Assembly: GCA_018646985.1 (NCBI GenBank)
Contig: JABGTR010000022.1
Location: 4,343 to 68,342 of the forward strand
Length of the DNA: 64,000 bases
Direction of reading: 5' to 3'
Source of the DNA: Minisyncoccota bacterium
GTDB taxonomy: Bacteria; Patescibacteriota; Microgenomatia; UBA1400; PJMF01
Part shown: positions 13,058 through 56,268 of the stretch, piece by piece
Layout of the letters: every line of letters starts with the position of its first letter
Numbering within the stretch: position 1 is the stretch's first letter
Program-made: the position numbers and the translations under genes
Notes under the pieces: model-generated
Told to the model about the DNA's origin: nothing
Database searches by the model: none
What the model saw: the letters and a program-made list of their open reading frames with translations, nothing else

Positions 13058-14248
13058 ATGCAAAACATCACCATCCAAGAAGCTCTAACTAGGGGAGTTA
13101 CAGAAATACTTCCTTCTAAAAAATCTTTAGCAGAACTCATGGAGCAGAAAAAGATCCGCCTTTACCTAGGCATCGATCCTACTGGATCACTTTTAACATT
13201 GGGTCACAGTGTGTTACTGCGTAAACTCCAACAGTTTGCTGACCTAGATCATGACGTTATCTTGCTTATTGGTGGTGGTACAGTCAAAATTGGCGACCCA
13301 ACCGGCAAAGACTCCACTCGTCCAGAACTAACCAACGAAGTAATTGAAGAAAATTTTAAAAACTGGCAAGAACAGGCCAGCAAGATTCTAGACTTTAGCA
13401 AAATTAAAATCATGAATAATGCTGATTGGCTCGATAAGCTCACCTACGTTGATCTCATTAAAATAATGGCCAAAACTACCGTCCAACAACTAATGGAGCG
13501 AGACATGTTTCAAGAGCGAGTTAAAGCTGGTCGTCCAGTTCATGCTCATGAAATCATTTACCCACTGATGCAAGGTTATGACAGTGTCCACATGGATGTC
13601 GATTTAGAAATTGGCGGCACTGATCAAACCTTCAATATGATGATGGGTCGCACTCTCCAAAAAGCCTACAACAACCACGAGAAGTGGGTCTTAAGCACTC
13701 CAATCATCAATGGCACTGATGGCCGCAAGATGAGCAAGTCATATGGCAATTTTGTAGCTCTGACTGAAAATCCCAATGATATGTACGGCAAATTGATGAG
13801 AATTGGTGATGAGATGATAATTAATTATTTCACGGTGCTAACTGATGTCCCAATGGCAGAAATAGAAGAGATGGAAAAAGCTATGGCAGCTGGTGAAAAC
13901 CCAATGACATTCAAGAAAAAACTCGCCTTCACCATTACCACTATGTACCATGATGAGAAACTAGCTCAAACAGCCCAAGAAAATTTTAAAACTATTTCTC
14001 AAGAAAAAGGCATTCCTGATCAAAAACCAGTTCATTTAATTAGTGCTGCTTCCACCACAATTCTAAGTCTAGCCACAGGAGCTAGAAAAGAGTTGAGTAG
14101 CAGTGATGTTCGCCGTAGAATAGAACAGGGAGCAGTCTCAATTGACTCTCAGAAATACACTGATCCCAATCAAGAAATTACTCCCAAATCAGGCAGTATT
14201 TTGAAAACTGGCAAAAGAGACTTTCATGAACTAAAAGTGGAGGACTAA
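13058..14248 (+). CDS. tyrS: Tyrosine--tRNA ligase
   Basis: Class I synthetase: the HIGH-region is GIDPTGSLLTLGH, followed by GGGTVKIGDPTGKDSTR and the KMSKS motif. A C-terminal S4-like domain (DVRRRIEQGAVSID). Confidence 0.82.
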   Translation: MQNITIQEALTRGVTEILPSKKSLAELMEQKKIRLYLGIDPTGSLLTLGHSVLLRKLQQFADLDHDVILLIGGGTVKIGDPTGKDSTRPELTNEVIEENFKNWQEQASKILDFSKIKIMNNADWLDKLTYVDLIKIMAKTTVQQLMERDMFQERVKAGRPVHAHEIIYPLMQGYDSVHMDVDLEIGGTDQTFNMMMGRTLQKAYNNHEKWVLSTPIINGTDGRKMSKSYGNFVALTENPNDMYGKLMRIGDEMIINYFTVLTDVPMAEIEEMEKAMAAGENPMTFKKKLAFTITTMYHDEKLAQTAQENFKTISQEKGIPDQKPVHLISAASTTILSLATGARKELSSSDVRRRIEQGAVSIDSQKYTDPNQEITPKSGSILKTGKRDFHELKVED

Positions 14249-14357
14249 AATGACAAGAAAAAATAGAGAGCGAATGACCAAAGCTTTTGGGATTATATTC
14301 ATGCTAGCTATGCTCCTGAGTGTCATCGGCAGCAGCGTGCTTTATTTACTTTAAGAT

Positions 14358-14660
14358 TTACTCTGCTAAACCAGTTATTACCTCTTTACCTATTAGACCA
14401 AATTTAGATGGGCCTTGTTTTGAAGAAAAAACAAAATTATTGCTTTTCACCCTAACCAAAGAGCCACGATCTTCAATAACTTCAACAACTCCATGATTTA
14501 TGACCTGAACTCTGTCTCCAGGCTTATATATGGTGTTTTTTTCTAATTTTTCAGCAGCAGCAGATTGCCCTGCACTAGGATGTTCTTCATCATAATTACT
14601 TGCGCTACCAGCATTATGATCATAAAACCTTCCTGATTCTAGTCCTCTTCCATATGACAT
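14358..14660 (-). CDS. Hypothetical 100-aa protein
   Basis: ORF only. It lies convergent to tyrS and divergent from recG. Confidence 0.3.
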   Translation of the reverse strand: MSYGRGLESGRFYDHNAGSASNYDEEHPSAGQSAAAEKLEKNTIYKPGDRVQVINHGVVEVIEDRGSLVRVKSNNFVFSSKQGPSKFGLIGKEVITGLAE

Positions 14661-14729
14661 AATTTCCCTTTTTCTAAAACATACTTTATCAAATTATATC
14701 AGATCTAAATCTGTGTCATAATTAGACTC

Positions 14730-16691
14730 ATGTACTCACTCTCTGGCAAGATCACCAACGCTACCGGCATCGGCCCCAGCGTCTCCGATAAACTAGCTCT
14801 TAAAAATATCCACACTATTCAAGACCTTTTACTCTGGGTCCCACTTCGCTATGAAGACCGCTCTGAGCAAAAACTCATCATGGATTTAGTCAAAGATGAA
14901 TTAGTCACTATCCAAGCTGAGGTAACCGCCATTTCTAATCAATACAAAGGCCGTCGCTCTATGCAGCGAGCCACAGTCCGAGATAGCTCTGGTCCACTTA
15001 AGCTAATTTGGTTTAACGCCCCCTTCATCAAAGATGCTTTAGTAAAAGGCCAATCATATTTCTTCAGCGGTAAACTCAATAACCGCGGGATGATGACTCA
15101 GCCCAAAGTAGAAAAAATCTCCAATGACACTACCCATACTAATCGCTTGGTCCCCATCTATTCTTCAGTTCCTGAAATAAAAGCCGGCAACTTGCGTCGC
15201 TATCTCAAAGAAGTCACTCAACATCTCGATCCCATCTCAGATTTATTGGCCACAGAATTTGACCTCCTCCCTTTAAACGAAACTTTTAAACATCTCCATT
15301 TCCCAGATGATCAAGAACTAACCATCAAGGCTCGCGAGCGTTTAGCCATCGAAGAACTCTTGGGTTTAATGCAGCACTCGGCTGAAATCAAACAACAATG
15401 GAAAGATAATGCTTCAGCTCACTTAGTTACAGTTGATAAAGAAAACTCAATTCCAGATTTACCATTTACCCTAACTTCCGCTCAGCAACGTAGTACTAGA
15501 GAACTCCTAGTGGATATTCAATCAACCACACCCATGAATAGACTCTTGTTGGGTGATGTTGGCTCTGGAAAAACTGTCGTGGCTGGAATTGCAACCCTTC
15601 ACACACTCAATAATAATCATCACGTCGCTTTTATCGCTCCCACTCAAATATTAGCTGAGCAACACCTAGAAACTCTCAGCAAGCTTTTTCCTCAAATTAA
15701 TATTCAGCTGCTAACAGCTAAAACTAAGTTTTCCCTTGCTGAAAAACCTACTCTTTATCTGGGCACTCACGCCGTCATCAACAAACTTCAGCAGATAAAA
15801 CCAGCCCTAGTCATCTATGATGAGCAACATCGCTTTGGGGTAGAACAACGCAGTGAGATCTCCAAACTAACTTTCAGACCCCATATTCTAACTATGTCAG
15901 CTACTCCCATTCCCCGTAGCTTAATGCTGACCATTTTTTCTCATCTAGAACTAAGCGTAATTGATGAAATGCCAGCTGGTAGAAAACCAATTAAAACCTG
16001 GTTAGCGTCAGAAAAAAAACGAGCAGGATCATATGATTGGATCAAGAAAAAACTCCGGGAGAGTGGGGGGCAAGTATTGGTGGTCTGCCCATTCATTGAA
16101 CATTCAGAGCATGAGGCTTTTGCCAATGTTAAATCTGCTACTGAAACTTTTGCGGAGATTAAGCCCCAATTTCCTGATCAAAAAGTTGAGTTACTCCACG
16201 GTCGTCTGACCTCAGATCAAAAAGATAAAATTACCAAGCGTCTATTTGATCAAAAGATAGATATTTTAGTTACCACCCCAATTGTTGAAGTCGGTATTGA
16301 CCTGCCAGCAGCATTAATCATTATTATCGAGTCAGCTGAAAGATTCGGTCTAGCTAGTCTTCACCAACTTAGAGGCCGAGTAGGCAGGGCTGGACAGCAG
16401 GCTTACTGTTTATTATTTCCTAGCTCTAAATCTCCCACCATCAGCCAACGTCTTGATGTTTTTACCAAAACTAATGATGGTATTAAACTAGCTGAATTTG
16501 ATCTGCAAAATAGGGGAGCGGGTGATCTTTTCGGCACCAACCAACATGGCTTTGACCAGCTCCAGTTCTCCAATTGGACCAACATCGAGCTCATCACCAA
16601 AGCAAAACAAATCTTTGATGAACTAAAAAGCTCTCAAATTACTTGGAAATCTGTTATTTCTCGTCAGTCAACTACCCCTACAGCCAACTAA
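14730..16691 (+). CDS. recG: ATP-dependent DNA helicase RecG
   Basis: Wedge/OB N-terminal region. SF2 helicase motifs GDVGSGKT, DEQHRFGV and TATPIPR. C-terminal QLRGRVGRAG. Confidence 0.88.
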   Translation: MYSLSGKITNATGIGPSVSDKLALKNIHTIQDLLLWVPLRYEDRSEQKLIMDLVKDELVTIQAEVTAISNQYKGRRSMQRATVRDSSGPLKLIWFNAPFIKDALVKGQSYFFSGKLNNRGMMTQPKVEKISNDTTHTNRLVPIYSSVPEIKAGNLRRYLKEVTQHLDPISDLLATEFDLLPLNETFKHLHFPDDQELTIKARERLAIEELLGLMQHSAEIKQQWKDNASAHLVTVDKENSIPDLPFTLTSAQQRSTRELLVDIQSTTPMNRLLLGDVGSGKTVVAGIATLHTLNNNHHVAFIAPTQILAEQHLETLSKLFPQINIQLLTAKTKFSLAEKPTLYLGTHAVINKLQQIKPALVIYDEQHRFGVEQRSEISKLTFRPHILTMSATPIPRSLMLTIFSHLELSVIDEMPAGRKPIKTWLASEKKRAGSYDWIKKKLRESGGQVLVVCPFIEHSEHEAFANVKSATETFAEIKPQFPDQKVELLHGRLTSDQKDKITKRLFDQKIDILVTTPIVEVGIDLPAALIIIIESAERFGLASLHQLRGRVGRAGQQAYCLLFPSSKSPTISQRLDVFTKTNDGIKLAEFDLQNRGAGDLFGTNQHGFDQLQFSNWTNIELITKAKQIFDELKSSQITWKSVISRQSTTPTAN

Positions 16692-16731
16692 GCTTGCAAA
16701 TATACTCACACCGAGTTACAATTCTGTTTCT

Positions 16732-16893
16732 ATGGGAGCAGTACCAAAAAATAAAATTACCAGATCCGAACGTGGCAAACGTCGTCAAGGCAATAAGCCA
16801 AAGCTAAAGAAAAACTTAGTACATCACAGTATTCCTTTGCATAAAAGAGGTTTAGTGGCACAGATTTTTAAAACAGTTGGACTTAAAGACTAG
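16732..16893 (+). CDS. rpmF: 50S ribosomal protein L32-like protein, 53 aa; too short to appear in the ORF track
   Basis: MGAVPKNKITRSERGKRRQGNKPK... resembles the L32 N-terminus (MAVPKRKTSKSRRDKRR). It has no Cys zinc ribbon. Confidence 0.5.
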   Translation: MGAVPKNKITRSERGKRRQGNKPKLKKNLVHHSIPLHKRGLVAQIFKTVGLKD

Positions 16894-16930
16894 TTACAAC
16901 TCCACCCATTTTTTATATACTACTAGAGAT

Positions 16931-17356
16931 ATGTCAGACACAAACCAAATTCCTGCTGGTGATCACATTGTTGAGAAAGAAACCAAGGACACCAATCCAG
17001 ATCCTCGGCACCAAAAAAGAATTAGGCTTATGCAAGCCTTGTTTAGTCATAGTTTCAACCAAGAAACTGACTTAATAGATGATGAGCAGCAAATTTATAA
17101 TAAAACCATCTCTTCGCTTGAAAACATTGATCCTCTTATAGCTAAACATGCTCCAGAGAGACCTTTGTCAGAAATTAACCAAGTAGATTTAGCCATCCTA
17201 CGCCTGGTAATTTTCGAGACTCAAAGCACTAAAATACCAGTTAAAGTAGCAATCAATGAGGCCGTCGAGCTAGCAAAAGAGTTTGGGACTGAAAGCTCAC
17301 CTCGATTTGTTAACGGGGTACTAGGCCAGATACTGTCCCAGACAACAGCAAAGTAA
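16931..17356 (+). CDS. nusB: Transcription antitermination factor NusB
   Basis: NusB fold motifs RHQKRIRLMQALFS and PVKVAINEAVELAKEFG. The start is set at the internal Met to avoid overlap with rpmF. Confidence 0.8.
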   Translation: MSDTNQIPAGDHIVEKETKDTNPDPRHQKRIRLMQALFSHSFNQETDLIDDEQQIYNKTISSLENIDPLIAKHAPERPLSEINQVDLAILRLVIFETQSTKIPVKVAINEAVELAKEFGTESSPRFVNGVLGQILSQTTAK

Positions 17357-17365
17357 AAGGAAGTC

Positions 17366-17626
17366 ATGAATCAAAATAGAGATAGTATTACAGATGAAAT
17401 TAAAGATATTATTGAAAAAAAACTCTTAGTTGATATCTCCCAACTAGAAAGTGATGACAACCTAAAAGAAACCTTGGGTATTGACCCAGAAATAGACCAA
17501 CCTCTCTTAACATCGGATATTGTTAAAAACTACAATATTTCACTAGAAGCAGAAGAGCTTTTGAATCAAGCCAACACCCTCAATCAACTAGTTAGCATTG
17601 TTATCGAAGAGACAGAACTGGGATAA
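17366..17626 (+). CDS. Acyl-carrier-protein-like acidic protein lacking the phosphopantetheine-attachment serine
   Basis: Aligns to AcpP along its full length. The DSLD motif is replaced by DPEIDQ (TLGIDPEIDQPLL against DLGADSLDTVEL). Confidence 0.5.
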   Translation: MNQNRDSITDEIKDIIEKKLLVDISQLESDDNLKETLGIDPEIDQPLLTSDIVKNYNISLEAEELLNQANTLNQLVSIVIEETELG

Positions 17627-17633
17627 TCAAACT

Positions 17634-18296
17634 ATGCTACCAAAATTTAATAACCCACTTTTACTAGAAACAGCATTAACTCATCGAAGTGCGCTTAATG
17701 AACGTGTCTCCTCAGCTTTAGAATCAAATGAGAGACTTGAATTTCTAGGTGATGCTGTCTTAGAGTTAATCACTACCGAGTTTTTGTTTGCAGAATTTCC
17801 CGACGAACCAGAGGGTATTTTGACTGCCTACAGAAGTTCATTGGTGAAAACAACTACCTTGTCAGAAGTTGCTTTAGAAATAGGATTGGGTGAAAAACTC
17901 CATATGAGCAAGGGAGAGGAAGCTACTGGTGGTAGAAATAACCCCGGCTTATTAGCTGATACTACCGAAGCCATTATCGGTGCTATTTATCTAGATCAAG
18001 GCTATGAAGCAACTCAGGAATTCTTAGAAGAGAACCTTTTTAACAAGTTTGCCAAGATTAAAGAACAAAAACTATATCAAGATTCTAAAAGTGTTTTGCA
18101 GGAGATTGTTCAGTCAAAAGGCTTTGAAGCTCCAATATATAAAGTAACAAAAGAAGAGGGACCAGATCACGATAAGCAGTTTACTATCGAGGTTTTAGTC
18201 AACTCTAAGCCTGCAGGAACAGGTATGGGTAAGAGCAAACAGCTGGCTCAACAGGCCGCAGCTCAAGCAGCTCTCAAAGAGCTGGCTAATACTTGA
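17634..18296 (+). CDS. rnc: Ribonuclease III
   Basis: RNase III signature ERLEFLGDAVLEL. C-terminal dsRBD (GPDHDKQFTIEV...). Confidence 0.9.
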   Translation: MLPKFNNPLLLETALTHRSALNERVSSALESNERLEFLGDAVLELITTEFLFAEFPDEPEGILTAYRSSLVKTTTLSEVALEIGLGEKLHMSKGEEATGGRNNPGLLADTTEAIIGAIYLDQGYEATQEFLEENLFNKFAKIKEQKLYQDSKSVLQEIVQSKGFEAPIYKVTKEEGPDHDKQFTIEVLVNSKPAGTGMGKSKQLAQQAAAQAALKELANT

Positions 18297-18329
18297 GTAA
18301 ATAGGACAAAACCCTTATAATCGCAACCT

Positions 18330-18776
18330 ATGTTAAAAATAAAACTAGTTAGATTCGGAAAAAGAAACCAACCCCACTATCGTATAGTGATTCAAGAAGC
18401 TCGCACTAAAAGAGATGGTAAGTACACTGCCAAAATTGGTCATTACGCACCTACTCAAAATCCAAAGATTCTAGAGATTAATATGGAAGAGTATAAGAAA
18501 TGGATCGCTAAAGGTGCTCAGCCTACAGAAACTGTAGCTAGCTTAGCCAAAAGATTTGCCAGCGGCAACCCTTTCCCAGAGAAAAAGAAAAAGGTTTCCA
18601 AGAAGCAAGCTATAAAAAATAAGAAAGCTAAAGAAGAAGCAGCTAAACCTGTAGAAGAGAAACCAGCTGAAGAAGAAAAGGTTGAAGAACCAGTGGTAGA
18701 AAAAGCTGATGAGCCTGTAGAGGAAAAAGGGGTTGAAGACAAAAAAGTAGAAAAAGAAACAGAAACCAAAAAATAA
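18330..18776 (+). CDS. rpsP: 30S ribosomal protein S16 with a K/E-rich C-terminal tail
   Basis: MLKIKLVRFGKRNQPHYRIVIQEARTKRDGKY... The last roughly 60 aa are K/E/A-rich low complexity. Confidence 0.88.
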   Translation: MLKIKLVRFGKRNQPHYRIVIQEARTKRDGKYTAKIGHYAPTQNPKILEINMEEYKKWIAKGAQPTETVASLAKRFASGNPFPEKKKKVSKKQAIKNKKAKEEAAKPVEEKPAEEEKVEEPVVEKADEPVEEKGVEDKKVEKETETKK

Positions 18777-19063
18777 TGAAGAATTTACTAGAATTTATCT
18801 TAATCCACCTTGTCGACAATCCAGAAGAAGTCAAAATTGAAATTAGCGAAGATGAGCGAGGCACAACCTATCTCATGCATGTTCACCCAGATGACATGGG
18901 AAAAGTGATTGGTAAAAAAGGTTCAGTTATTAACGCCATTAGAAATATCGCTAAAATTCGTGCTATCAAAGAAGGAATTCGTCCTTATATTACACTAGCA
19001 GAACCGGCTGAGACTGAAGAAAAAGTTGAAGAAGAAACTAAAGAAGAAGTCGCGGCTGAATAA
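18776..19063 (+). CDS. KH-domain RNA-binding protein of the YlqC/UPF0109 family
   Basis: KH motif VIGKKGSVINAIRNIAKI. Conserved position after rpsP. Confidence 0.7.
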   Translation: MKNLLEFILIHLVDNPEEVKIEISEDERGTTYLMHVHPDDMGKVIGKKGSVINAIRNIAKIRAIKEGIRPYITLAEPAETEEKVEEETKEEVAAE

Positions 19064-19067
19064 GATA

Positions 19068-19901
19068 TTATTGTGTCAATTGATCTTCATCAAGATCTTG
19101 CAAGTTCAATCCAAAAAGATCATCTAGACCACCACCCTGAATATTCTCTTGCACGTTAAAGGCAGGAAATGAGTAGTTACTAATCTCTTCAATTATCTCT
19201 TGTTCTTTGATACCTATGTCTGGTAGAGAAGAGCTCAACTTAGATGTCACGGATTGTGTGAAAAAATAAGTCTTAAGTACTACTTCTGCTTGAACTTCAT
19301 CCGAAGGCCTAATGATATTATCATTACTCTTAATATCAAGTGATAAGCTAGTAATAGTGGTTAGTGGAGATACTCTCTCTATATCCTCAAAAAAACTTTG
19401 AACATTACGAAACTCACCCAATATTTCTGCCTCTACCACCAAAGAGTCATAGCCTTCATTACTCACTTTTGGTTGCGCCTTCTTATTTTTAGAACTAGAC
19501 TTTGCTACTCCTAGAAACTCTGCACTTTCAGAAGCAATTTTCCCAGGAGAAAGACTTAAATCTACAAAAACCACATCATTTCTACCTGCAACGACATTTA
19601 GTGATGTCATTAACTCCAGCAATGGTTTTTTTGACGGTAAAATTAAGTTGACTAAATCCAAAGAATCATAAGCTTCCCTAGCCTCTATGTTTTCCAAATC
19701 ATTAGTTTTCTGTCGCAACACATTTACTTGATCTTGTTCAACAGAAATCTCTCTATTGAGATCAAACAATTTATTGACTTGAGTAGTAATACCTGAAAAA
19801 ACTATTATTAAAGATAAGACGGCACTTAATATAGACAGCAACAGATAACGACGATTAGTAAATAAAGATTTAAAATTAATCTCTGACTTATTATTGATCA
19901 T
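19068..19901 (-). CDS. pilO: Type IV pilus assembly protein PilO-like
   Basis: N-terminal transmembrane segment plus coiled coil. Last gene of a pilM-pilN-pilO arrangement, translationally coupled. Confidence 0.45.
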   Translation of the reverse strand: MINNKSEINFKSLFTNRRYLLLSILSAVLSLIIVFSGITTQVNKLFDLNREISVEQDQVNVLRQKTNDLENIEAREAYDSLDLVNLILPSKKPLLELMTSLNVVAGRNDVVFVDLSLSPGKIASESAEFLGVAKSSSKNKKAQPKVSNEGYDSLVVEAEILGEFRNVQSFFEDIERVSPLTTITSLSLDIKSNDNIIRPSDEVQAEVVLKTYFFTQSVTSKLSSSLPDIGIKEQEIIEEISNYSFPAFNVQENIQGGGLDDLFGLNLQDLDEDQLTQ

Positions 19902-31707: not shown

Positions 31708-33750
31708 ATGCTACAGTATGATAAAACAAATATCTCTATGTCAGCTGCAGCCAAATACGATGCCAAACAAATTAAACTCCTTCAAGGGTTAGAGCCGGTC
31801 CGAAAAAGGCCTGGGATGTACATCGGTTCAACCGATACCAAGGGCCTTCATCACTTGGCTAAAGAAATCCTAGATAACTCAGTTGATGAAGCTATTGCTG
31901 GTTTTGGTAAAAAGATTCAGTTGATTAGAACTACTCCCAATGAAGTCCACCAAAAGCTGAGCCCCAAAGGAGCTTTGGGCAATGAAGCCATTATCGTAGT
32001 TGATAACGGCCGTGGTATTCCGACTGGAAAACATGAGTCTGGTTTATCAGCTATGGAAGTAGTTATGACCAAGCTTCATGCTGGTGGTAAGTTCGAAGAA
32101 ACTGCCTATCAAGCTTCAGGAGGTCTTCACGGAGTTGGATCTTCTGCTGTCAACGCCGTCTCTTCAGCCATGCAGGTCATCTCCAAAAGAGATGATAAGT
32201 ATCATTACCAAACCTACTCTCAAGGTATACCAAAGAGTAAAGTAAAGGTAATTAGTGAATCAGAAGTTAAAGAACTATTTCCAACAGCATCAAAAGAATT
32301 TGTTAACTATCAAACAGGCACAATAGTTTGTTTTGTTCCTGACACAACTATTTTTTCTACCACAGATTTTAATCAAAATGTTTTAACTCAAGTGACTAAA
32401 GACAGAGCTTACTTAATGGCTGGCCTTTACTTTGAGTTTATCGATCTGATTGGCAACGATCATCAACACTTCTACTTTGAAAATGGAATTCGCTCACTGG
32501 TCACTCACATTAATATGACCAGGAAACCTTTGCATGAGGTATTCCATACTGATAAGTTTTGGAAGGATGAAGAAACTGGTAAACAAATCGGGGTAGAGGT
32601 AGCCCTCCAGTACAATGATTCATTTAATGTTAAAGTAGACAGCTATGTTAATGTCATTAGCACTCCTGATGGCGGGACCCACATCAATGGTTTCAGAACT
32701 GCTCTAAGTAAAGTCTTGCGAGATTATGCCGAGAAGAATGAGATCCTCAAAACTGGAGAATCATTCACTATCGATGACTCGATGGAAGGTCTAACTGCAG
32801 TCGTGTTTGTCAAAATGTCAGCCAATGATCTCCAATTTGAATCTCAAACTAAAGCTAAACTTAATAACGCTGAAGCTCAACCCGCTGTTTATTATGTGGT
32901 TAAAAATGCTTTCACCACTTTCTTGGAAGAAAATCCTAAGATTGGTCGTACTATCGTCAATAAAATTTTATTAGCCTCTAGAGCTAGACTCGCTGCTCGC
33001 GCTGCTAAAGATGCGGTAGTGCGAAAAGGTGTCTTAGAAGGTAGCTCTTTGCCAGGTAAACTAGCTGACTGTCAAAGCAGAAAAGCAGAAGAGGCAGAAA
33101 TCTATATTGTTGAGGGTGACTCTGCTGGTGGCACTGCCAAACAGGGCCGTGACCGAAAATTCCAAGCTATTTTCCCACTTCGAGGTAAGATTCTTAACAC
33201 TGAAAGAGCTAGACTTGATAGAGTAGTTGCTTTTGAAGAACTCAAAAACTTAGTGATTGCCCTTGGCGCTGGAATTGGAGAAACTTTCGATATTTCTAAT
33301 TTACGATATCATCGAATTATCCTAATGAACGATGCTGATGTCGATGGTGAGCACATTACTACCCTGGGACTAACTTTCTTCTTTAGGCATTTGCCAGAAG
33401 TAGTTAAACAGGGCTACTTATATGTAGCTGTACCACCGCTCTACAAACTTACTTATGGGAAGAACGAAGCTTATGTTTACACGGAAGACGCCAAAGAAGC
33501 AAAGCTTAAGGAAATAAACAAAACTTATAAGGGTGTCCTTAAAACCCAACGTTATAAGGGTTTGGGTGAAATGAATGCCGTCCAACTCTGGGATACCACC
33601 ATGAACCCAGAAACTAGAATCTTAAAAAAGATTACTATTGCCGATGCTGAGATTGCTGATCAAACCTTTAGTGACTTAATGGGTGATGATGTAGCTCCAC
33701 GTAAAAAATTCATCCAAAAACAAGCTCAATTTGCCAAGATAGATATTTAA
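31708..33750 (+). CDS. gyrB: DNA gyrase subunit B
   Basis: GLEPVRKRPGMYIGST, EGDSAGG and Toprim PLRGKILN motifs. Confidence 0.95.
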   Translation: MLQYDKTNISMSAAAKYDAKQIKLLQGLEPVRKRPGMYIGSTDTKGLHHLAKEILDNSVDEAIAGFGKKIQLIRTTPNEVHQKLSPKGALGNEAIIVVDNGRGIPTGKHESGLSAMEVVMTKLHAGGKFEETAYQASGGLHGVGSSAVNAVSSAMQVISKRDDKYHYQTYSQGIPKSKVKVISESEVKELFPTASKEFVNYQTGTIVCFVPDTTIFSTTDFNQNVLTQVTKDRAYLMAGLYFEFIDLIGNDHQHFYFENGIRSLVTHINMTRKPLHEVFHTDKFWKDEETGKQIGVEVALQYNDSFNVKVDSYVNVISTPDGGTHINGFRTALSKVLRDYAEKNEILKTGESFTIDDSMEGLTAVVFVKMSANDLQFESQTKAKLNNAEAQPAVYYVVKNAFTTFLEENPKIGRTIVNKILLASRARLAARAAKDAVVRKGVLEGSSLPGKLADCQSRKAEEAEIYIVEGDSAGGTAKQGRDRKFQAIFPLRGKILNTERARLDRVVAFEELKNLVIALGAGIGETFDISNLRYHRIILMNDADVDGEHITTLGLTFFFRHLPEVVKQGYLYVAVPPLYKLTYGKNEAYVYTEDAKEAKLKEINKTYKGVLKTQRYKGLGEMNAVQLWDTTMNPETRILKKITIADAEIADQTFSDLMGDDVAPRKKFIQKQAQFAKIDI

Positions 33751-33767: not shown

Positions 33768-34715
33768 ATGCCAACTACCTACATCATCGGCCACAAAAAA
33801 CCTGACACTGACTCAGTAGTAGCAGCAATGGCATTGCAGTATCTCTACCAACAACGAGATTGCTTTGAATATGAACAACCTCGAGCAGCTATTGTTGACC
33901 CCTTAAATCCAGAAACCAGTTACCTATTTGATAAATTTGAAGTAGAAACACCTCAGTTGATTACTACTAGCGATATGGGCTCAGATGATCAAGTTGTTTT
34001 AGTTGACCACAATGAGGCTTCACAAAGACTTGGGGGTTTAAGTGAAGATCAAATTGTAGATGTGATTGACCACCACAAGGTTAATTTAAACCTAAGCAAA
34101 CCCATCTACATGACTTTTAAAACTTGGGGCTCAAGCTGTACGATTGTTTATCATTTGATGAAACAAAATGACGTTGTCCCAGATCAAAAATTAGCCTCAC
34201 TGATGTTAGCTGCAATCCTATCTGACACCGTTGGCTTTAAAGGTGCTACCACAGATGAAACTGATAAAAAATATGGCCAAGAATTAGCAGAGATTGCCCA
34301 AATAAATAACATTGATGCCTTTGCTTTAGAGATATTTAAGGCAAAATCAGATATCAGTGCTTTAAATAATAAAGAAATTGTCCAAAATGACTATAAAATC
34401 TATGAATTTTCTCAGAAGACTTTTATTAGCCAGCTGGAAACAGTCGAGCAAGAATCATTAGTTACTACTAAAAAAGATGAACTCTTAGCAGCTATGCTGG
34501 AGGTCAAAAAACAACAAAGCGTAGAACTACTATTCGTGGCAGTGACCGATGTCTTAAAAGTAAGCACAAAGCTACTACTAGCTGGTGAAGAAGAAATTGC
34601 TATCGCTCAGGCAGCTTTTGGTGGAACTGCCATTGATAACATCTTAGATATTGGACCAAAAATGTCACGTAAAAAAGAAATCGCACCAGCAATTGAAGAG
34701 GTACTAAAAAGATAG
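33768..34715 (+). CDS. ppaC: DHH/DHHA2 family II (Mn-dependent) inorganic pyrophosphatase
   Basis: GHKKPDTDS, VDHNE and DHHK motifs. The C-terminal MSRKKEIAPAIEEV resembles the family II PPase signature. Confidence 0.6.
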   Translation: MPTTYIIGHKKPDTDSVVAAMALQYLYQQRDCFEYEQPRAAIVDPLNPETSYLFDKFEVETPQLITTSDMGSDDQVVLVDHNEASQRLGGLSEDQIVDVIDHHKVNLNLSKPIYMTFKTWGSSCTIVYHLMKQNDVVPDQKLASLMLAAILSDTVGFKGATTDETDKKYGQELAEIAQINNIDAFALEIFKAKSDISALNNKEIVQNDYKIYEFSQKTFISQLETVEQESLVTTKKDELLAAMLEVKKQQSVELLFVAVTDVLKVSTKLLLAGEEEIAIAQAAFGGTAIDNILDIGPKMSRKKEIAPAIEEVLKR

Positions 34716-34721
34716 AAAATT

Positions 34722-37469
34722 ATGACCGATCAAGACAATCAAACTCCAGCAGAAACAGTTCAAGAAGAAACCGTAGTTAATGGTGACGCCGCTAAGATCG
34801 GCACCATTGAACAAACCAAGTACGGCAAGATGAACTACATCTCAATTACCACAGAGATGGAAAAATCTTATCTAGATTACGCCATGAGCGTCATCGTCTC
34901 TAGAGCCCTTCCAGATGTCAGAGATGGCCTAAAGCCAGTCCACCGTCGTATTTTATTCTCAATGTATAAAAGTGGTATCCATCATCACAGCTCTTACAAG
35001 AAGTCTGCTCGTATCGTTGGTGACGTGTTGGGTAAATATCACCCCCATGGTGATGCTCCTGTTTACGGAGCTTTAGTTAGATTAGCTCAAGATTTTAGTA
35101 TGCGCTATATGTTAATTGATGGCCAAGGTAACTTTGGTTCAGTTGATGGCGATAGTCCAGCAGCCATGCGTTACACAGAAGCTAGAATGGCTAAAATTTC
35201 TCAAGAGTTGCTCCAAGATTTAAATAAAGATACTGTCAAGTTTTTAGATAACTTTGATGGTTCCCTACAAGAACCTTACGTTTTGCCAGCCAAACTACCT
35301 AATTTATTATTGATGGGAGCTGAAGGTATTGCTGTGGGTATGGCTACTAAGATCCCACCCAACAACTTAACTGAAGTCTGTGAAACTATTGTCGAAATGA
35401 TCGAGGGTGGTAAAGCCATTGTTGATATAGATGTGACTGAACGCATTAGTAAACTTCAAACAGAGATTGAACAGATCTCAAAAAAAGATGAGCATAAAAT
35501 TACTAGCTCCAAACTAATTGATCTCTACCTACAGGAAGAAGCTGGGAAACTAGCCGGAGAGTTCCAAGCTGAGATCACTTTTGATCAAATTATGGATCAC
35601 ATCAAGGGCCCAGACTTTCCTACTGGCGGTATCATCTATGACTTCAACAGTATCAAAGAAGCCTACCAAACTGGAAAAGGTAAGATAATTATTCGTGCTC
35701 AAGCCAGAATTGAAGAAGACAAACCAGGTAGATTTAAGATTTTAGTAACTGAGCTTCCATATCAGGTCAATAAAGCCAGACTCTTAATGAAAATTGCTGA
35801 CTTAGTTAAGAATGGTCGCATCGAAGGTATTCGTGACCTGAACGATGACTCCGATAGAACTGGGATGCAGATTACCATCGATCTCAAGAAAAATTCTCGG
35901 CCAAAAGTGGTCCTGAACAAGCTCTTCAAGTACTCACAACTCCAGACTAGTTTCCCAGTCAACATGGTGGCCCTGTCTAGTAATGGCACCCCCCAATTAA
36001 TGAACGTCAAGCAAATTTTAAGAGAATTTATTAATCACCGCCAATTAGTAATTGTCAGACGCAGTCAGTATGACTTGGCAGAAGCTAGGGATAGAGCTCA
36101 CATCTTAGAAGGATTACTAATTGCTCTTAATAACTTAGATGATGTCATTGCTACTATTCGTAAATCCAAAGATACTGACACCGCCAAGAAGTCATTGATG
36201 AGTAAGTTTGAATTAAGTGAGATTCAGTCTATCGCTATTCTTGAAATGCAGCTCAAAAGACTGGCTGCTCTAGAGCGACAGAAGATCGAAGATGAGTATA
36301 AAGCCATTAAAAAAATTATTGACGACCTCTTGACTTTGATCAGTGATCCTAAAGCTATTTTAAAAGTCATTGTAGATGAGACTAAACAACTAATTGCTGA
36401 TTATGGAGATGATCGCCGCACCAAACTAGTCAAAAGTAAGGTCGGTGAGTTCAATGAAGAAGATCTAGTTGCTAATGAAGCCGCCGTGATTACCCTGACT
36501 GAATCTGGTTACATCAAACGGATGAGCCCATCAGCCCTCAGATCTCAATCTAGAGGTGGAAAAGGCTCCAAAGGTCTAAGTATGAAAGAAGAAGACTTGG
36601 TTAAATCAATTGTCTTTACTGAAACTCATGACAACTTACTCTTGTTCACCAATCAAGGACGAGTTTTTGACCTCAAATCATTCCAGGTTCCAGAAGCTAG
36701 CCGCCAGGCTAGGGGCACAGCTACTGTTAACTTAATTAATCTTAAGCCAGAGGAAAATGTTCAATCTATTCTAGTGGTAGACCTTAAGAAAGATCAGAAT
36801 AAATTCATCACTTTGGCAACCAAGAATGGATTAGTCAAAAAGAGCTCTGTTAAATTATATGAAAATATTCGCCAATCAGGGATTATCGCCATCACTCTCA
36901 ATAAAGATGATGAGGTGGTCAGAGGGCAACTCACTCATGGTGAAGATCACATCTTGCTGACTACTAAACAGGGTAAGTCTATTCGCTTTCTAGAGAAAGA
37001 AGTTAAAAGTTCTAGCCGAGATACTAAAGGCGTAAAGGGAATTACTATTAAGAAAGATGACTATGTGATTGGAATGGAAGCTTTCTCTGATGAAACAGAA
37101 GTGGTGGGCGACAGAACAGTCGACAAACAACTTTTGGTAGTAACCGAGAATGGTCTAGGTAAACGTACCAAACTGAAAGCCTACCCGGTCCAAAAACGCT
37201 CTGGAATGGGTGTTAAGGTAGCAGACGTCACCAAAAAGACTGGTCTTATCGCTTCAGTGCGATTAGTTAAACCTACTCACAAGCAGTTGGTGATTGGTAC
37301 CAAATCAGGTCAGACTATTAAAATGCCAATCACTAAAAAATCTATTCCTACTTTGACTAGACCAACTCAAGGAGTAATTCTAATGAGACTCAAAAAGAGT
37401 GATAAGGTGGTGGCCGTTACCCTGACTGAAGAAATTGAGATTGAAGAAGAAGCAACTCCAAAGAAATAA
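34722..37469 (+). CDS. gyrA: DNA gyrase subunit A
   Basis: YAMSVIVSRALPDVRDGLKPVHRRIL. Active-site Tyr region. C-terminal beta-pinwheel repeats. Confidence 0.95.
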   Translation: MTDQDNQTPAETVQEETVVNGDAAKIGTIEQTKYGKMNYISITTEMEKSYLDYAMSVIVSRALPDVRDGLKPVHRRILFSMYKSGIHHHSSYKKSARIVGDVLGKYHPHGDAPVYGALVRLAQDFSMRYMLIDGQGNFGSVDGDSPAAMRYTEARMAKISQELLQDLNKDTVKFLDNFDGSLQEPYVLPAKLPNLLLMGAEGIAVGMATKIPPNNLTEVCETIVEMIEGGKAIVDIDVTERISKLQTEIEQISKKDEHKITSSKLIDLYLQEEAGKLAGEFQAEITFDQIMDHIKGPDFPTGGIIYDFNSIKEAYQTGKGKIIIRAQARIEEDKPGRFKILVTELPYQVNKARLLMKIADLVKNGRIEGIRDLNDDSDRTGMQITIDLKKNSRPKVVLNKLFKYSQLQTSFPVNMVALSSNGTPQLMNVKQILREFINHRQLVIVRRSQYDLAEARDRAHILEGLLIALNNLDDVIATIRKSKDTDTAKKSLMSKFELSEIQSIAILEMQLKRLAALERQKIEDEYKAIKKIIDDLLTLISDPKAILKVIVDETKQLIADYGDDRRTKLVKSKVGEFNEEDLVANEAAVITLTESGYIKRMSPSALRSQSRGGKGSKGLSMKEEDLVKSIVFTETHDNLLLFTNQGRVFDLKSFQVPEASRQARGTATVNLINLKPEENVQSILVVDLKKDQNKFITLATKNGLVKKSSVKLYENIRQSGIIAITLNKDDEVVRGQLTHGEDHILLTTKQGKSIRFLEKEVKSSSRDTKGVKGITIKKDDYVIGMEAFSDETEVVGDRTVDKQLLVVTENGLGKRTKLKAYPVQKRSGMGVKVADVTKKTGLIASVRLVKPTHKQLVIGTKSGQTIKMPITKKSIPTLTRPTQGVILMRLKKSDKVVAVTLTEEIEIEEEATPKK

Positions 37470-37476
37470 TAATTTG

Positions 37477-37550
37477 TGGACCTGAGGGGATTCGAACCCC
37501 TGACCTCCTGTATGCCATACAGGCGCGCTAGCCAACTGCGCCACAGGCCC
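37477..37550 (-). tRNA. tRNA-Ala (anticodon GGC)
   Basis: Reverse complement GGGCCTGTGGCGCAGTTGGCTAGCGCGCCTGTATGGCATACAGGAGGTCAGGGGTTCGAATCCCCTCAGGTCCA. A G3:U70 pair is present. CCA is not encoded. Confidence 0.85.
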
Positions 37551-37655
37551 TTTTATTTATTTTTAAAAGAGAAAACTCATTTTACCACGGAATCATCCCT
37601 AGCAAAACGCTTTTTGTTACACTTCTGATAGGCATGGCCATTCATAGTAAGTTCA

Positions 37656-38039
37656 GTGAAAAAACTTACCAAACATTGGCTCTCATTAGCAGAAAAAGAT
37701 TTTCTGGCTGCAGACTATCTTTTCAATGGTGCTCGTTACCCTCACGCCATTTACTTTTTATGTCAAGCAATCGAAAAAATACTCAAGGCAGATTTAATTG
37801 AATCCTCAGATTCAAAGCCACCACATACCCACAATCTATCTAGTCTAGTAAGAAAAGTATCATTTAAAATACCAGCTAATAATAAAGTCGCCATTGAAGA
37901 GCTAGACAAACACTATAAAAGAGTCAGATATCCAGACATTGCTCAAGTATCGTATAATACTAAAAAGAAAATTTTACCAATATTTAATCATGGTAAGAAA
38001 ATATATTTATGGATAAGAAATCAATTCAAAAAAAATTAG
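37656..38039 (+). CDS. HEPN-domain protein, the putative toxin of a HEPN/MNT module
   Basis: HEPN hallmarks: A..DL..A..L...G.Y..A.F..QQA.EK.LKA, THNL and RVRYPD. Confidence 0.65.
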   Translation: MKKLTKHWLSLAEKDFLAADYLFNGARYPHAIYFLCQAIEKILKADLIESSDSKPPHTHNLSSLVRKVSFKIPANNKVAIEELDKHYKRVRYPDIAQVSYNTKKKILPIFNHGKKIYLWIRNQFKKN

Positions 38040-38326: not shown

Positions 38327-38527
38327 ATCAATCAAAATACTAATTAATATATCTATCTATTTAGCAATAGATCAATTATTCACCAAATTGAAGAGTAGGG
38401 GAGTGATAAAAAAATACCCACAAGTTAGACCGATGTATCAAGACTAATATTTAGATAACCCTATTAGCAGTCATTAAGCTACTCTGCTAATGACCGATAA
38501 CAAAAAATCCACTTACTTTAGCTAAAT

Positions 38528-56267: not shown

Positions 56268-56268
56268 A

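What the first reader, a model, noticed from the sequence alone, without database searches (positions are those of the whole stretch)
17366..17626. ACP homologue with the 4'-phosphopantetheine serine replaced by proline, in the conserved acpP-rnc position
The 86-aa acidic protein aligns by eye with AcpP over its whole length, including helix II. However, the invariant DSL motif carrying the prosthetic-group serine reads DPE (TLGIDPEIDQPLL). It therefore cannot be phosphopantetheinylated.

It lies immediately upstream of rnc, exactly where acpP sits in Firmicutes-type fab operons. No fab or pls genes are present in the window.

This suggests a retained, repurposed ACP scaffold, perhaps kept for a protein-protein interaction role, in an organism that has lost fatty-acid synthesis.
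Basis: partly seen in the sequence, partly recalled or inferred. Interest (0 to 1): 0.6.

Follow-up and report, generated by a model that had tools for sequence, protein, structure and literature searches.

The report
Serine-less acyl carrier protein of CPR bacteria
This small gene is a real descendant of the acyl carrier protein of fatty-acid synthesis that has lost the serine holding its cofactor (glutamate sits there instead). It belongs to a conserved, apparently undescribed family in ultra-small CPR bacteria, so it must now do something other than carry acyl chains.

Summary
The ORF at 17366-17626 (+, 86 aa) is real. It comes from a Candidatus Pacebacteria (CPR) MAG. It has an ACP fold: AF2 pLDDT 86, and all top-50 PDB matches are ACPs with TM 0.7-0.8. 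It scores only borderline on Pfam PP-binding (20.9 vs 20.8 bits).

No Ser/Thr/Cys is available at the prosthetic site.

I found a CPR-restricted family of 126 sequence clusters. Glu replaces the Ser in 89% of them (WWE3-type motif DLNIGEMEL for DLGADSLD). In every locus examined the gene lies nusB-X-rnc, on a recG...rnc-rpsP-khpA backbone. This echoes B. subtilis acpA-rnc and the fabG-acpP-fabF-rnc order I found in two non-CPR phyla.

dN/dS is about 0.1. The Glu and the invariant C-terminal E-x-E/D-L-G are kept through synonymous codon changes.

In the window's subfamily helix II has lost its acidic character and an acidic C-terminal tail has appeared. No fab, pls or AcpS genes occur in the window.

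Best reading: a non-carrier ACP scaffold kept for protein binding, possibly mimicking holo-ACP. The partner is unknown. The closest analogue is apicomplexan mitochondrial ACP (Ser to Phe).

The parts
17366..17626 (+). ACP-like CDS (86 aa, pI about 4.05, net charge -14). A Ser-less acyl carrier protein homologue of the 'ELG' subfamily.
   Evidence: ORF. Pfam PP-binding 20.9 bits. AF2 ACP fold with Foldseek hits to ACPs. Homologues. Charge. dN/dS 0.09-0.13.
17489..17491 (+). Codon GAA for Glu42, the residue aligned with the phosphopantetheine-bearing Ser36 of E. coli AcpP.
   Evidence: HMMER alignment to PDB ACPs. MAFFT alignments A4 and the census. Glu is found in 112 of 126 family members. Both GAA and GAG are used across lineages.
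17486..17488 (+). Codon CCA for Pro41.
   Evidence: Treated as an insertion. It varies among close and distant relatives (P/L/Q/M/E/V).
17501..17503 (+). Codon CCT for Pro46 near the start of helix II. It is a hallmark of the window's subfamily (92% of 24 members) and replaces Val40 of AcpP.
   Evidence: The codon position follows.
17606..17623 (+). C-terminal acidic tail E81-E82-T83-E84-L85-G86-COOH. E82, L85 and G86 are invariant across the subfamily.
   Evidence: Alignments A1 and A2. Synonymous codon variation at Glu, Leu and Gly across seven loci. The last 8 residues carry net charge -3, against 0/-1 in canonical ACPs.
16931..17356 (+). nusB, the upstream neighbour in the same tightly packed gene string (9-nt gap to the ACP-like gene).
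   Evidence: Pfam NusB 2.3e-25. The nusB-X-rnc order is conserved in all family loci examined.
17634..18296 (+). rnc (RNase III), the downstream neighbour (7-nt gap).
   Evidence: Pfam Ribonucleas_3_3 5.5e-38 plus dsrm. Gene call in L001.
16732..16893 (+). rpmF (ribosomal protein L32). From my own knowledge, rpmF precedes plsX-fab-acpP in E. coli-type clusters.
   Evidence: Pfam Ribosomal_L32p 21.8 bits against a cut-off of 21.3. It is also present upstream of nusB in L092.
14730..16691 (+). recG, part of the conserved backbone tyrS-recG-(rsmD)-(rpmF)-nusB-X-rnc-rpsP-khpA.
   Evidence: Pfam annotations of the called genes.
18330..19063 (+). rpsP (18330-18776) and khpA (18776-19063), the downstream end of the conserved gene string.
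   Evidence: Pfam Ribosomal_S16 and KH_KhpA-B.

Best explanation
The gene is a true evolutionary descendant of acpP that has stopped being a carrier.

Shown:
- It has the ACP four-helix fold.
- It lies in the ancestral acpP-(fabF)-rnc slot.
- The prosthetic-group Ser is replaced by Glu42, with an extra Pro41 before it.
- It belongs to a CPR-restricted family (Pacebacteria, Microgenomatus, Woesebacteria, WWE3 and other Patescibacteria). Glu occupies the Ser position in about 89% of 126 sequence clusters.
- The family is under purifying selection.
- The gene lies between nusB and rnc in every locus examined.

Inferred:
- A PPTase needs the Ser hydroxyl, so the protein cannot be phosphopantetheinylated or acylated. 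It must act by non-covalent binding as a small, very acidic adaptor or accessory subunit. ACP is already known to play this role for MukB, MmpL5, EmbAB and Isd11-Nfs1.
- The conserved Glu carboxylate sits at the first turn of helix II, where the phosphodiester of holo-ACP would be. It plausibly mimics that negative charge, giving a permanent 'holo-like' surface without the arm.
- In the WWE3-type members the acidic recognition helix II is intact. In the window's subfamily helix II has become neutral (Pro46, Lys54). Instead an invariant acidic tail ending in E-x-E/D-L-G-COOH has appeared, which I take to be the docking element.
- The partner is not identified. The conserved nusB-X-rnc-rpsP-khpA string makes an rRNA-transcription, RNA-processing or ribosome-biogenesis partner the first candidate. 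However, the position may simply be inherited from the fab-acpP-rnc cluster.
For: Fold:
- Window protein.
- WWE3-type member P0142: pLDDT 93, TM about 0.9, rmsd 1.2 A to FAS ACPs. Helix II starts exactly at the Glu (E38).

Homology bridge:
- Pfam PP-binding scores 27-46 bits for CPR relatives L011, L017, L019 and L049.

Ser column:
- Searches give 112 Glu, 4 Asp, 3 Ala, 2 Leu, 2 His and 1 each of Gly, Pro and Arg among 126 family members.
- In the unbiased rnc-anchored scan, all 13 ACP-like ORFs between nusB and rnc lack Ser. Both non-CPR ACPs upstream of rnc have DSLD.

Selection:
- dN/dS is 0.09-0.13.
- The Glu is encoded by GAA or GAG in different lineages. The terminal E-L-G codons vary synonymously.

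Surface change:
- Helix II net charge is -5/-6 in canonical ACPs and -2 to +1 in the ELG subfamily. The C-terminal 8 residues carry -3, against 0/-1.

Synteny:
-.
- The acpA-rnc operon of B. subtilis (PMC4838370).

Precedents for PPant-independent ACP roles:
- Apo- and holo-AcpP stimulate the MukB ATPase equally (PMC8602292).
- Plasmodium mACP (Ser to Phe) binds Isd11-Nfs1 (PMC8547962).
- AcpM in MmpL5 and EmbAB complexes appears among the structural hits.

AcpS recognition:
- D35N, E41A or E47A/E48A alone block modification by AcpS in vivo (10.1101/2025.01.28.635281). The window protein has L47, V53 and K54 at the E41, E47 and E48 positions.

FAS status of CPR:
- CPR genomes lack fatty-acid initiation and elongation pathways (PMC4742961).
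Against: - No partner is identified and no expression or binding data exist.
- The gene is missing from most CPR rnc loci. In 35 of 80, nusB abuts rnc directly. In 20 of 80 another gene lies between them (NUDIX-like, by eye, in the two loci inspected, L061 and L081). Any role is therefore dispensable or lineage-specific.
- The protein evolves 2-3 times faster than its neighbours. It is 27-32% identical where Rnc is 60-66% identical.
- Within the ELG subfamily the Ser column is not always acidic: Gly, Leu or Ala in P0052, P0066, P0080 and P0088. This weakens the phosphate-mimic idea for that subfamily.
- dS is saturated (>1), so the dN/dS values are rough.
- The Gly/Glu codons just before the rnc start may also serve as its ribosome-binding site.
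- Whether the genome truly lacks a PPTase, FAS II and a second canonical acpP could not be checked.
Confidence: 0.6

Rival explanations
1. A specific version of the main idea. The Glu-ACP is an accessory subunit or regulator of the rRNA transcription and processing machinery it is co-encoded with. It would bind NusB (or NusB-S10) or RNase III, or chaperone basic ribosomal proteins such as L32 and S16. It would link antitermination, RNase III cleavage and early ribosome assembly in organisms with few biogenesis factors.
For: - The order nusB-X-rnc-rpsP-khpA(-trmD), with 4-30 nt gaps, is invariant across family members that are only about 25% identical.
- The scans gave no sign of internal promoters or terminators: counts did not exceed those in shuffled sequence, though promoter-like consensus matches do lie inside and just before the ACP-like CDS.
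- nusB-rnc is a CPR-wide pair, seen in 72 of 80 loci.
- CPR retain rnc but only about half the usual ribosome biogenesis factors (PMC12641178).
- From my own knowledge, mitochondrial ACP is part of the MALSU1-L0R8F8-mtACP module on assembling large ribosomal subunits.
Against: - Adjacency to rnc is fully explained by descent from fab-acpP-(fabF)-rnc.
- Many CPR keep nusB-rnc without the ACP-like gene.
- No co-varying feature in NusB or Rnc was sought or found.
- No interaction modelling was possible with the tools.
Confidence: 0.2
2. The protein is still a covalent carrier but uses a different attachment chemistry. The conserved Glu gamma-carboxylate could be used, as in the LysW/ArgW amino-group carrier proteins. 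In the ELG subfamily the invariant C-terminal Gly carboxylate could be used, as in ThiS, MoaD or ubiquitin-like proteins. A ligase encoded elsewhere would load it.
For: - A carboxylate is conserved at exactly the prosthetic site of a carrier-protein fold, in 89% of members.
- The ELG subfamily has an invariant free Gly C-terminus.
Against: - Some family members have Gly, Ala, Leu, His, Pro or Arg at the site.
- The ...LG end is confined to one subfamily. Others end in EY, EF, EV, FI and so on.
- No ATP-grasp, E1-like or adenylating enzyme lies in the window or in the conserved neighbourhood.
- The fold and termini are unrelated to LysW (a small zinc-binding protein, from my own knowledge) or to beta-grasp carriers.
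Confidence: 0.05
3. It is a decaying relic of acpP with no function of its own, still open only by chance or recent loss of function.
For: - It evolves faster than its neighbours.
- It is absent from many CPR lineages.
- The Pfam score is borderline.
Against: - An intact ORF of constant length (76-96 aa) occurs in 126 sequence clusters across several CPR classes.
- dN/dS is about 0.1.
- Residues are conserved family-wide and subfamily-wide despite synonymous turnover.
- AF2 folds are confident.
Confidence: 0.04
4. The ORF matters mainly as a translated leader that couples or tunes translation of rnc. The conserved 3' codons would then reflect the rnc ribosome-binding site rather than protein function.
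For: - The stop codon lies 4-7 nt before the rnc ATG in all seven loci compared.
- The last codons GAR-YTN-GGN supply G-rich, SD-like sequence.
- In B. subtilis the acpA-rnc mRNA is autoregulated by RNase III.
Against: - Conservation is at the amino-acid level along the whole protein, including positions far from rnc.
- Leu85 uses CTG, CTA, CTT, TTA and TTG, and Gly86 uses all four GGN codons.
- The protein folds confidently.
Confidence: 0.04
5. It is still phosphopantetheinylated, on another hydroxyl residue (for example Ser50, or a Ser one position before the canonical column, as in L017, L019 and L030).
For: - Ser50 is invariant among the 13 closest relatives.
- A few family members have Ser at position -1.
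Against: - Neither Ser is conserved in the wider family.
- PPTases modify the Ser at the N-terminus of helix II and need D35, E41, E47 and E48. The window protein lacks the last three.
Confidence: 0.02

Closest known systems
Bacterial FAS II acyl carrier protein (AcpP of E. coli, AcpA of B. subtilis; Pfam PF00550, TIGR00517)
   Same: - Same four-helix fold (TM 0.7-0.9), similar size (about 80 aa) and similar pI (about 4).
- The D-L-G/N-hydrophobic loop before helix II and the T-V motif before helix IV are conserved.
- Same position immediately upstream of rnc as B. subtilis acpA, and one gene closer than in the fabG-acpP-fabF-rnc order.
   Different: - No prosthetic Ser (Glu42 instead, plus an inserted Pro41).
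- Helix II is not acidic in the window protein.
- It has an extra acidic C-terminal tail ending in ELG.
- No fab or pls neighbours.
- TIGR00517 scores 12 bits against 70.45 required.
Apicomplexan mitochondrial ACP (P. falciparum mACP, Ser to Phe), which binds Isd11-Nfs1 (Falekun et al. 2021, PMC8547962)
   Same: - An ACP scaffold retained after loss of FAS II in the compartment or organism.
- The attachment Ser is replaced by a residue that cannot be modified.
- The function is therefore PPant-independent. In Plasmodium it is essential and the substituted residue contributes to partner binding.
   Different: - Eukaryotic organelle versus free bacterial genome.
- Phe (hydrophobic) versus Glu (charged).
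- The Plasmodium partner is a LYR-motif protein (Isd11). LYRM proteins are eukaryote-specific as far as I know, so the partner here must differ.
- That paper found no Ser-less ACP outside Apicomplexa and Vitrella by BLAST from mACP.
ACP as a non-catalytic accessory subunit: AcpP-MukB, AcpM-MmpL5, AcpM2-EmbAB, AcpP-IscS
   Same: These show that the ACP fold is used as a bound structural or allosteric subunit of machines unrelated to lipid synthesis. For MukB, apo- and holo-AcpP work equally well (PMC8602292). Complexes of this kind are among the best structural matches of the family.
   Different: - In all of these the same protein is also the working, Ser-bearing FAS carrier.
- The E. coli ACP-IscS contact needs S36, D35 and D38 (PMC13343975).
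- From my own knowledge, MukB, MmpL5 and Emb are not CPR proteins.
LysW/ArgW amino-group carrier proteins (own knowledge)
   Same: A small, very acidic protein in which a Glu carboxylate, not a Ser-linked cofactor, is the functional attachment point.
   Different: - Unrelated fold (zinc-ribbon-like versus four-helix bundle).
- The Glu is C-terminal in an EDWGE motif.
- LysW is always clustered with its ATP-grasp ligase LysX. No such enzyme is seen here.

Membership tests
ACP / carrier-protein fold superfamily (PF00550 PP-binding) | Four-helix-bundle ACP fold | tested here: met
   AF2 pLDDT 86 with helices at 2-20, 33-37, 44-56, 60-68 and 72-85. All top-50 Foldseek PDB hits are ACPs, TM 0.64-0.81. 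The relative P0142 gives pLDDT 93 and TM about 0.9.
ACP / carrier-protein fold superfamily (PF00550 PP-binding) | Significant sequence match to the family profile | tested here: met
   The window protein scores 20.9 bits against a gathering score of 20.8, which is borderline. CPR relatives in the same genomic slot score 27-46 bits. A profile of the close family hits tandem-ACP PKS domains at E down to 1e-20.
Functional (holo) acyl carrier protein AcpP | Conserved Ser of the D-S-L motif at the N-terminus of helix II, the 4'-phosphopantetheine attachment site | tested here: not met
   Glu42 lies in the Ser column and Pro41 is inserted before it. No Ser, Thr or Cys is adjacent.
Functional (holo) acyl carrier protein AcpP | Acidic recognition helix II (E41, E47, E48) needed by AcpS and FAS enzymes | tested here: not met
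   Helix II net charge is -2, against -5/-6. L47, V53 and K54 lie at the E41, E47 and E48 positions. The requirement for these residues is shown.
Functional (holo) acyl carrier protein AcpP | Score above the trusted cut-off of the AcpP equivalog model (TIGR00517 / NF002148-50) | tested here: not met
   TIGR00517 scores 12.0 bits against 70.45. NF002150 scores 18.4 against 66.
Functional (holo) acyl carrier protein AcpP | Genome encodes a PPTase (AcpS/Sfp) and ACP-dependent enzymes (FabD/H/G/Z/I/F, PlsX/C) | not testable with these tools
   None were found in about 62 ORFs of the 64-kb window. The rest of the genome (GCA_018695255.1) could not be read. Published CPR surveys report no FAS initiation or elongation pathways.
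Functional (holo) acyl carrier protein AcpP | Orthologous genomic position (acpP upstream of rnc) | tested here: met
   The ORF lies immediately upstream of rnc. Canonical acpP lies upstream of rnc in L044 and L076 and in B. subtilis.
PPant-independent 'divergent ACP' (apicomplexan mACP type) | Attachment Ser replaced by a non-modifiable residue, conserved among relatives | tested here: met
   After setting aside the 6 Ser-bearing hits of the census (4 canonical ADSLD ACPs and 2 LELSSLEFF outliers), none of the remaining 126 clusters has Ser at the column, and 112 have Glu.
PPant-independent 'divergent ACP' (apicomplexan mACP type) | Binds a LYR-motif protein (Isd11) of the Fe-S cluster machinery | not tested
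   No LYRM or cysteine desulfurase gene lies in the window. Interaction modelling was not available.
LysW-type amino-group carrier protein | Zinc-binding Cys motif, C-terminal EDWGE, and an adjacent ATP-grasp ligase | tested here: not met
   The protein has no Cys or Trp. It ends in EETELG. No ATP-grasp gene lies in the window or in the conserved neighbourhood.

The most novel reading that the evidence does not exclude
The Ser-to-Glu ACP is a permanent mimic of holo-ACP. On this reading it survives in FAS-less CPR bacteria because ACP has an old, lipid-independent job as an obligatory subunit of a core machine. The most likely candidate is the NusB/RNase III rRNA-processing and ribosome-assembly pathway with which it is always co-encoded. 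The family would then isolate the 'moonlighting' function of ACP from its carrier function in a natural system.

A still more radical variant is that the Glu or the C-terminal Gly carboxylate is a new covalent attachment site. This is not excluded, but I put it at about 5% or less.
Probability: 0.2. Interest if true: 0.8.

Novelty: new variant of a known kind. Interest (0 to 1): 0.62.

Why it matters
- Databases label these proteins 'acyl carrier protein' or 'hypothetical'. Metabolic reconstructions and HGT analyses of CPR that count an acpP gene may therefore wrongly infer ACP-dependent chemistry.
- Until now, Ser-less ACPs kept after FAS loss were described only in apicomplexan mitochondria. 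A large bacterial family with a conserved Ser-to-Glu change shows the same outcome arose independently. It offers a simple system for asking what ACP does apart from carrying acyl chains.
- The family gives a concrete, testable candidate for an unknown factor in the minimal RNA-processing and ribosome-biogenesis toolkit of CPR bacteria.
- The Glu-for-phosphoserine-ester substitution suggests a design rule for making 'holo-like' ACP probes without a cofactor.

Tried and rejected
- Promoter and terminator consensus scan of 14200-19300: 15 promoter-like sites against 10.5 +/- 3.6 in shuffles, and 7 terminator-like sites against 4.5 +/- 2.1. This is not informative.
- The first profile search, built from only the 13 close relatives, found just about 11 stand-alone clusters plus many tandem-ACP PKSs. 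The family's true breadth appeared only after the rnc-anchored locus scan supplied divergent seeds.
- DNA for the closest relative P0002 (84% identity) was unavailable. dN/dS therefore had to use pairs at 78% identity or less, with saturated dS. Several neighbour-gene pairs returned no dS.
Only the window was scanned.
- Modelling a complex of the ACP-like protein with NusB or Rnc was not possible, because the structure tool takes single window or database sequences only.
- Literature searches for CPR, WWE3 or Patescibacteria together with ACP found no description of this family.
- I rejected the idea that Pro41 is the functional replacement. It is a variable insertion.
- I rejected Ser50, or a Ser at position -1, as an alternative attachment site. 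Neither is conserved.
- Rfam and repeat searches of the 1.5-kb gene-free stretch at 39467-40951 gave nothing decisive.
Full report
**1. What is there**

The window carries an ATG-to-TAA ORF of 86 codons at 17366..17626 on the + strand. It starts 9 nt after the stop of nusB (16931..17356; Pfam NusB 2.3e-25). It ends 7 nt before the ATG of rnc (17634..18296; Ribonucleas_3_3 5.5e-38 plus dsrm). Upstream lie a tRNA-synt_1b (Tyr/Trp-type) tRNA synthetase gene, recG and rpmF. Downstream lie rpsP and khpA, followed by a type IV pilus cluster on the other strand. The identical protein is HN846_04265 of a Candidatus Pacebacteria MAG (GCA_018695255.1). It is recorded on 56 contigs and in 112 index blocks, so it is not an assembly artefact.

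**2. Is it an ACP?**

Yes by fold and descent, but only marginally by sequence.

- Pfam PP-binding gives E 4.5e-4 and 20.9 bits, against a gathering score of 20.8.
- NCBIfam ACP models all fall far below their cut-offs. TIGR00517 scores 12 bits against 70.45.
- The best solved relative is T. maritima ACP, E 0.005.
- AlphaFold2 with 13 relatives gives a confident four-helix bundle (pLDDT 86, pTM 0.72). All 50 best Foldseek PDB matches are acyl carrier proteins, TM 0.64-0.81, rmsd 1.6-2.7 A.
- Relatives found in the same genomic slot of other CPR genomes bridge the gap to canonical ACPs. Their Pfam PP-binding scores are 27.1 (L011), 30.9 (L017), 35.2 (L019) and 45.7 bits (L049).

**3. The attachment site**

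HMMER's alignment to PDB ACPs reads lgidpeidqpll over lgad-sldlvdl. That makes Pro41 an inserted residue and puts Glu42 in the Ser column.

The replacement, however, is Glu and not Pro. Pro41 varies (P/L/Q/M/E/V) even among close relatives. The protein has no Cys. No Ser or Thr is conserved across the family except Thr71, which corresponds to the structural T-V motif of ordinary ACPs.

**4. A family, not an oddity**

The first searches gave these results:

- A word-indexed search found 13 proteins of 63-100% identity.
- A profile search over 1.84 billion representatives added about 10 stand-alone clusters of 25-40% identity. All end in ...E-x-E/D-L-G. It also hit many tandem-ACP polyketide synthases.

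To avoid presupposing the gene, I then scanned GTDB species genomes for RNase III relatives and looked upstream of rnc (80 loci, mostly CPR).

| Arrangement upstream of rnc | Loci (of 80) |
|---|---|
| nusB present upstream | 72 |
| nusB abuts rnc directly | 35 |
| another gene between nusB and rnc (NUDIX-like, by eye, in L061 and L081) | 20 |
| short gap, no ACP-like ORF detected | 4 |
| ACP-like ORF of 77-96 aa between nusB and rnc | 13 |

The 13 loci with the ACP-like ORF are labelled Pacebacteria, Microgenomatus, Woesebacteria, WWE3 and unnamed Patescibacteria. None of the 13 has Ser in the DSL column. The two non-CPR loci in which an ACP was detected upstream of rnc carry canonical DSLD ACPs. 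They are arranged fabG-acpP-fabF-rnc (L044, Calditrichaceae) and acpP-fabF-rnc (L076, Eisenbacteria).

Seeding a last database search with these divergent members returned 132 small proteins. I aligned them with E. coli and B. subtilis ACP.

- Six have Ser and were set aside. Four are canonical ADSLD ACPs and two are outliers with the motif LELSSLEFF.
- Of the remaining 126, the Ser column holds Glu in 112 (89%), Asp in 4, Ala in 3, Leu in 2, His in 2, and Gly, Pro and Arg in 1 each.

The dominant WWE3-type motif is D-L-N-I-G-E-M-E-L-x-E-I-L, in gapless register with D-L-G-A-D-S-L-D-x-V-E-L-V.

A WWE3 member, P0142, models at pLDDT 93. It superposes on FAS ACPs at TM about 0.9, rmsd 1.2 A and 28-30% identity. 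Its helix II starts exactly at the Glu (E38).

This last census is biased towards Ser-less sequences because of its seeds. The rnc-anchored scan is the unbiased evidence.

**5. Selection**

For pairs of 62-78% protein identity, NG86 gives these dN/dS ranges:

| Gene | dN/dS |
|---|---|
| ACP-like gene | 0.09-0.13 |
| rnc | 0.03-0.06 |
| nusB | 0.04-0.07 |
| khpA | 0.03-0.08 |

dS exceeds 1, so these figures are rough. The gene is clearly constrained, yet it evolves 2-3 times faster than its neighbours. Its protein identity falls to 27-32% where Rnc is still 60-66% identical.

The conserved Glu is encoded by GAA in some lineages and GAG in others. In seven loci the terminal Glu-Leu-Gly uses GAA/GAG/GAC, five different Leu codons and all four Gly codons. 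This conservation therefore acts on the protein and not only on the nearby rnc ribosome-binding site.

**6. Two flavours of the family**

| Feature | Canonical ACPs | WWE3-type members | Window's 'ELG' subfamily (24 of 126 clusters) |
|---|---|---|---|
| Helix II net charge | -5 to -6 | -5 | -2 to +1 |
| Helix II hallmark | acidic E41, E47, E48 | acidic helix kept | Pro at the V40 position (92%), often Lys or Arg further on |
| Extra residue before the Glu | no | no | yes in most members (absent in L011 and L013) |
| C-terminal tail | net charge 0/-1 over last 8 residues | not uniform | E82, L85, G86-COOH invariant; net charge -3 over last 8 residues |

The whole window protein stays very acidic (pI about 4.05, net -14). 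It has L47, V53 and K54 at the positions of E41, E47 and E48. Single charge-neutralising changes at those positions in E. coli ACP already abolish modification by AcpS (10.1101/2025.01.28.635281).

**7. Synteny and origin**

All family loci inspected share the string tyrS/trpS-type synthetase gene - recG - (rsmD) - (rpmF) - nusB - X - rnc - rpsP - khpA - (trmD), followed by pilO/N/M on the other strand.

In B. subtilis, rnc is the second gene of an acpA-rnc-smc-ftsY operon, and an acpA-rnc bicistronic mRNA exists (PMC4838370). From my own memory of the B. subtilis map, recG-fapR-plsX-fabD-fabG precede acpA, and ffh-rpsP-khpA-rimM-trmD follow ftsY. I did not check this with tools. If correct, the CPR string looks like the same backbone with the fab/pls genes deleted. 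Together with the fabG-acpP-fabF-rnc loci found here, this makes orthology with acpP the simplest reading.

About 62 window ORFs were scanned with Pfam. They contain no Fab, Pls, AcpS/Sfp or other ACP-dependent enzyme. [quoted passage not shown] I could not check this particular genome.

**8. How it most likely works**

Shown:
- ACP fold.
- No attachment Ser.
- Conserved Glu at that position.
- Purifying selection.
- Fixed position between nusB and rnc.

Inferred:
- The protein is not a carrier. It acts by binding something.
- ACP is known to serve as a bound accessory subunit. Apo- and holo-AcpP stimulate the MukB ATPase equally (PMC8602292). AcpM sits on MmpL5 and EmbAB (structural hits). 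Plasmodium mitochondrial ACP has Phe for the Ser and uses it to bind Isd11-Nfs1 after loss of mitochondrial FAS II (PMC8547962).
- A Glu at the first position of helix II places a carboxylate where holo-ACP carries its phosphodiester. I therefore propose it mimics the charge that partners of holo-ACP recognise.
- In the window's subfamily, the invariant acidic tail with a free ...L-G carboxylate is the more likely docking element.

The partner is unknown. The operon suggests NusB, RNase III or ribosome biogenesis, and CPR have few biogenesis factors but keep rnc (PMC12641178). The position can, however, be explained by inheritance alone. Many CPR also keep nusB-rnc without this gene. I give the general non-carrier adaptor model 0.6 and the RNA-processing partner 0.2.

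**9. Rivals**

| Rival | Confidence | Main argument against |
|---|---|---|
| Decaying relic | 0.04 | Breadth of the family, constant length and dN/dS about 0.1 |
| New covalent carrier using the Glu or the C-terminal Gly carboxylate | 0.05 | Exceptions at the Glu column; the ELG end is confined to one subfamily; no ligase in the neighbourhood |
| Translated leader for rnc | 0.04 | Protein-level conservation along the whole sequence |
| PPant on another Ser | 0.02 | No such Ser is conserved |

**10. Novelty**

Sources call these proteins 'acyl carrier protein' or 'hypothetical'. Full-text searches found no description of a Ser-less ACP family in CPR or Patescibacteria. The Plasmodium paper reports finding no Ser-less ACP outside Apicomplexa and Vitrella. 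I therefore rate this a new variant of a known kind: an ACP-fold protein that has lost carrier function. Its features are a conserved Ser-to-Glu substitution, a CPR-wide distribution and a fixed nusB-rnc context. Interest is moderate to high (0.62). The mechanism remains inferential.

Noticed in passing
window 39467-40951 (with 37476-39466): About 1.5 kb has no ORF of 60 aa or more in an otherwise tightly packed genome. It lies next to a tyrosine recombinase (38528-39466, -), a HEPN plus nucleotidyltransferase pair (37656-38326, +) and tRNA-Ala(ggc) (37476-37550, -). There is no Rfam hit at E<=1. It may be a small integrated element or an unannotated RNA.
   Followed up: partly
window 40475-40494 and 40545-40564: Two copies, 70 nt apart, of a 20-nt repeat, GTC[T/A]CCAGGCTAGCCTGGTA. 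It contains the perfect palindrome CCAGGCTAGCCTGG and lies inside the gene-free stretch.
   Followed up: no
L011-L090 (rnc loci), e.g. L020 3606-3965/4001, L025, L043: nusB lies immediately upstream of rnc in 72 of 80 loci, nearly all CPR. The two genes often overlap or sit less than 60 nt apart. This looks like a CPR-wide nusB-rnc operon that exists with or without the ACP-like gene.
   Followed up: partly
L061 3453-3950; L081 3441-3938: In these two Saccharibacteria-labelled loci, a 165-aa ORF occupies the slot between nusB and rnc instead of the ACP-like gene. It looks NUDIX-like by eye (GHIEEGE...REIxEETG). Twenty loci, mostly labelled Saccharibacteria, have a gap of comparable size there.
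   Followed up: no
L013, L014, L015, L025, L033, L039, L043, L053, L059, L063, L069: The GTDB/NCBI record titles call these contigs 'Pseudomonadales' or 'Gammaproteobacteria'. Their Rnc is 49-64% identical to the window's and nusB lies immediately upstream of rnc in each, as in the CPR-labelled loci; four of them (L013, L014, L015, L059) also carry the ACP-like gene. One isolate name even contains 'PATE'. The taxonomic labels are probably wrong.
   Followed up: no
window 55878-57063 (-): Lgt (prolipoprotein diacylglyceryl transferase) and LspA (signal peptidase II) are present. The organism therefore lipidates proteins with diacylglycerol from phospholipid, although its lineage is reported not to make fatty acids.
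   Followed up: no
window 46425-47069 (+); 57527-58269 (-): Defence or toxin-antitoxin genes occur in a streamlined genome: an AbiEii-family nucleotidyltransferase toxin, and a Gp49 (HigB-like) plus HTH_3 pair.
   Followed up: no
window 14358-14660 (-): A 100-aa ORF between the Tyr/Trp-type tRNA synthetase gene and recG has no Pfam match. It is called as a gene at the same place in related contigs (100 aa in L001, 89 aa in L003 and L004), so it is a conserved protein of unknown function.
   Followed up: no
window 33768-34715 (+): A DHH/DHHA2 phosphoesterase gene (family-II pyrophosphatase or NrnA-like) is inserted between gyrB (31708-33750) and gyrA (34722-37469).
   Followed up: no
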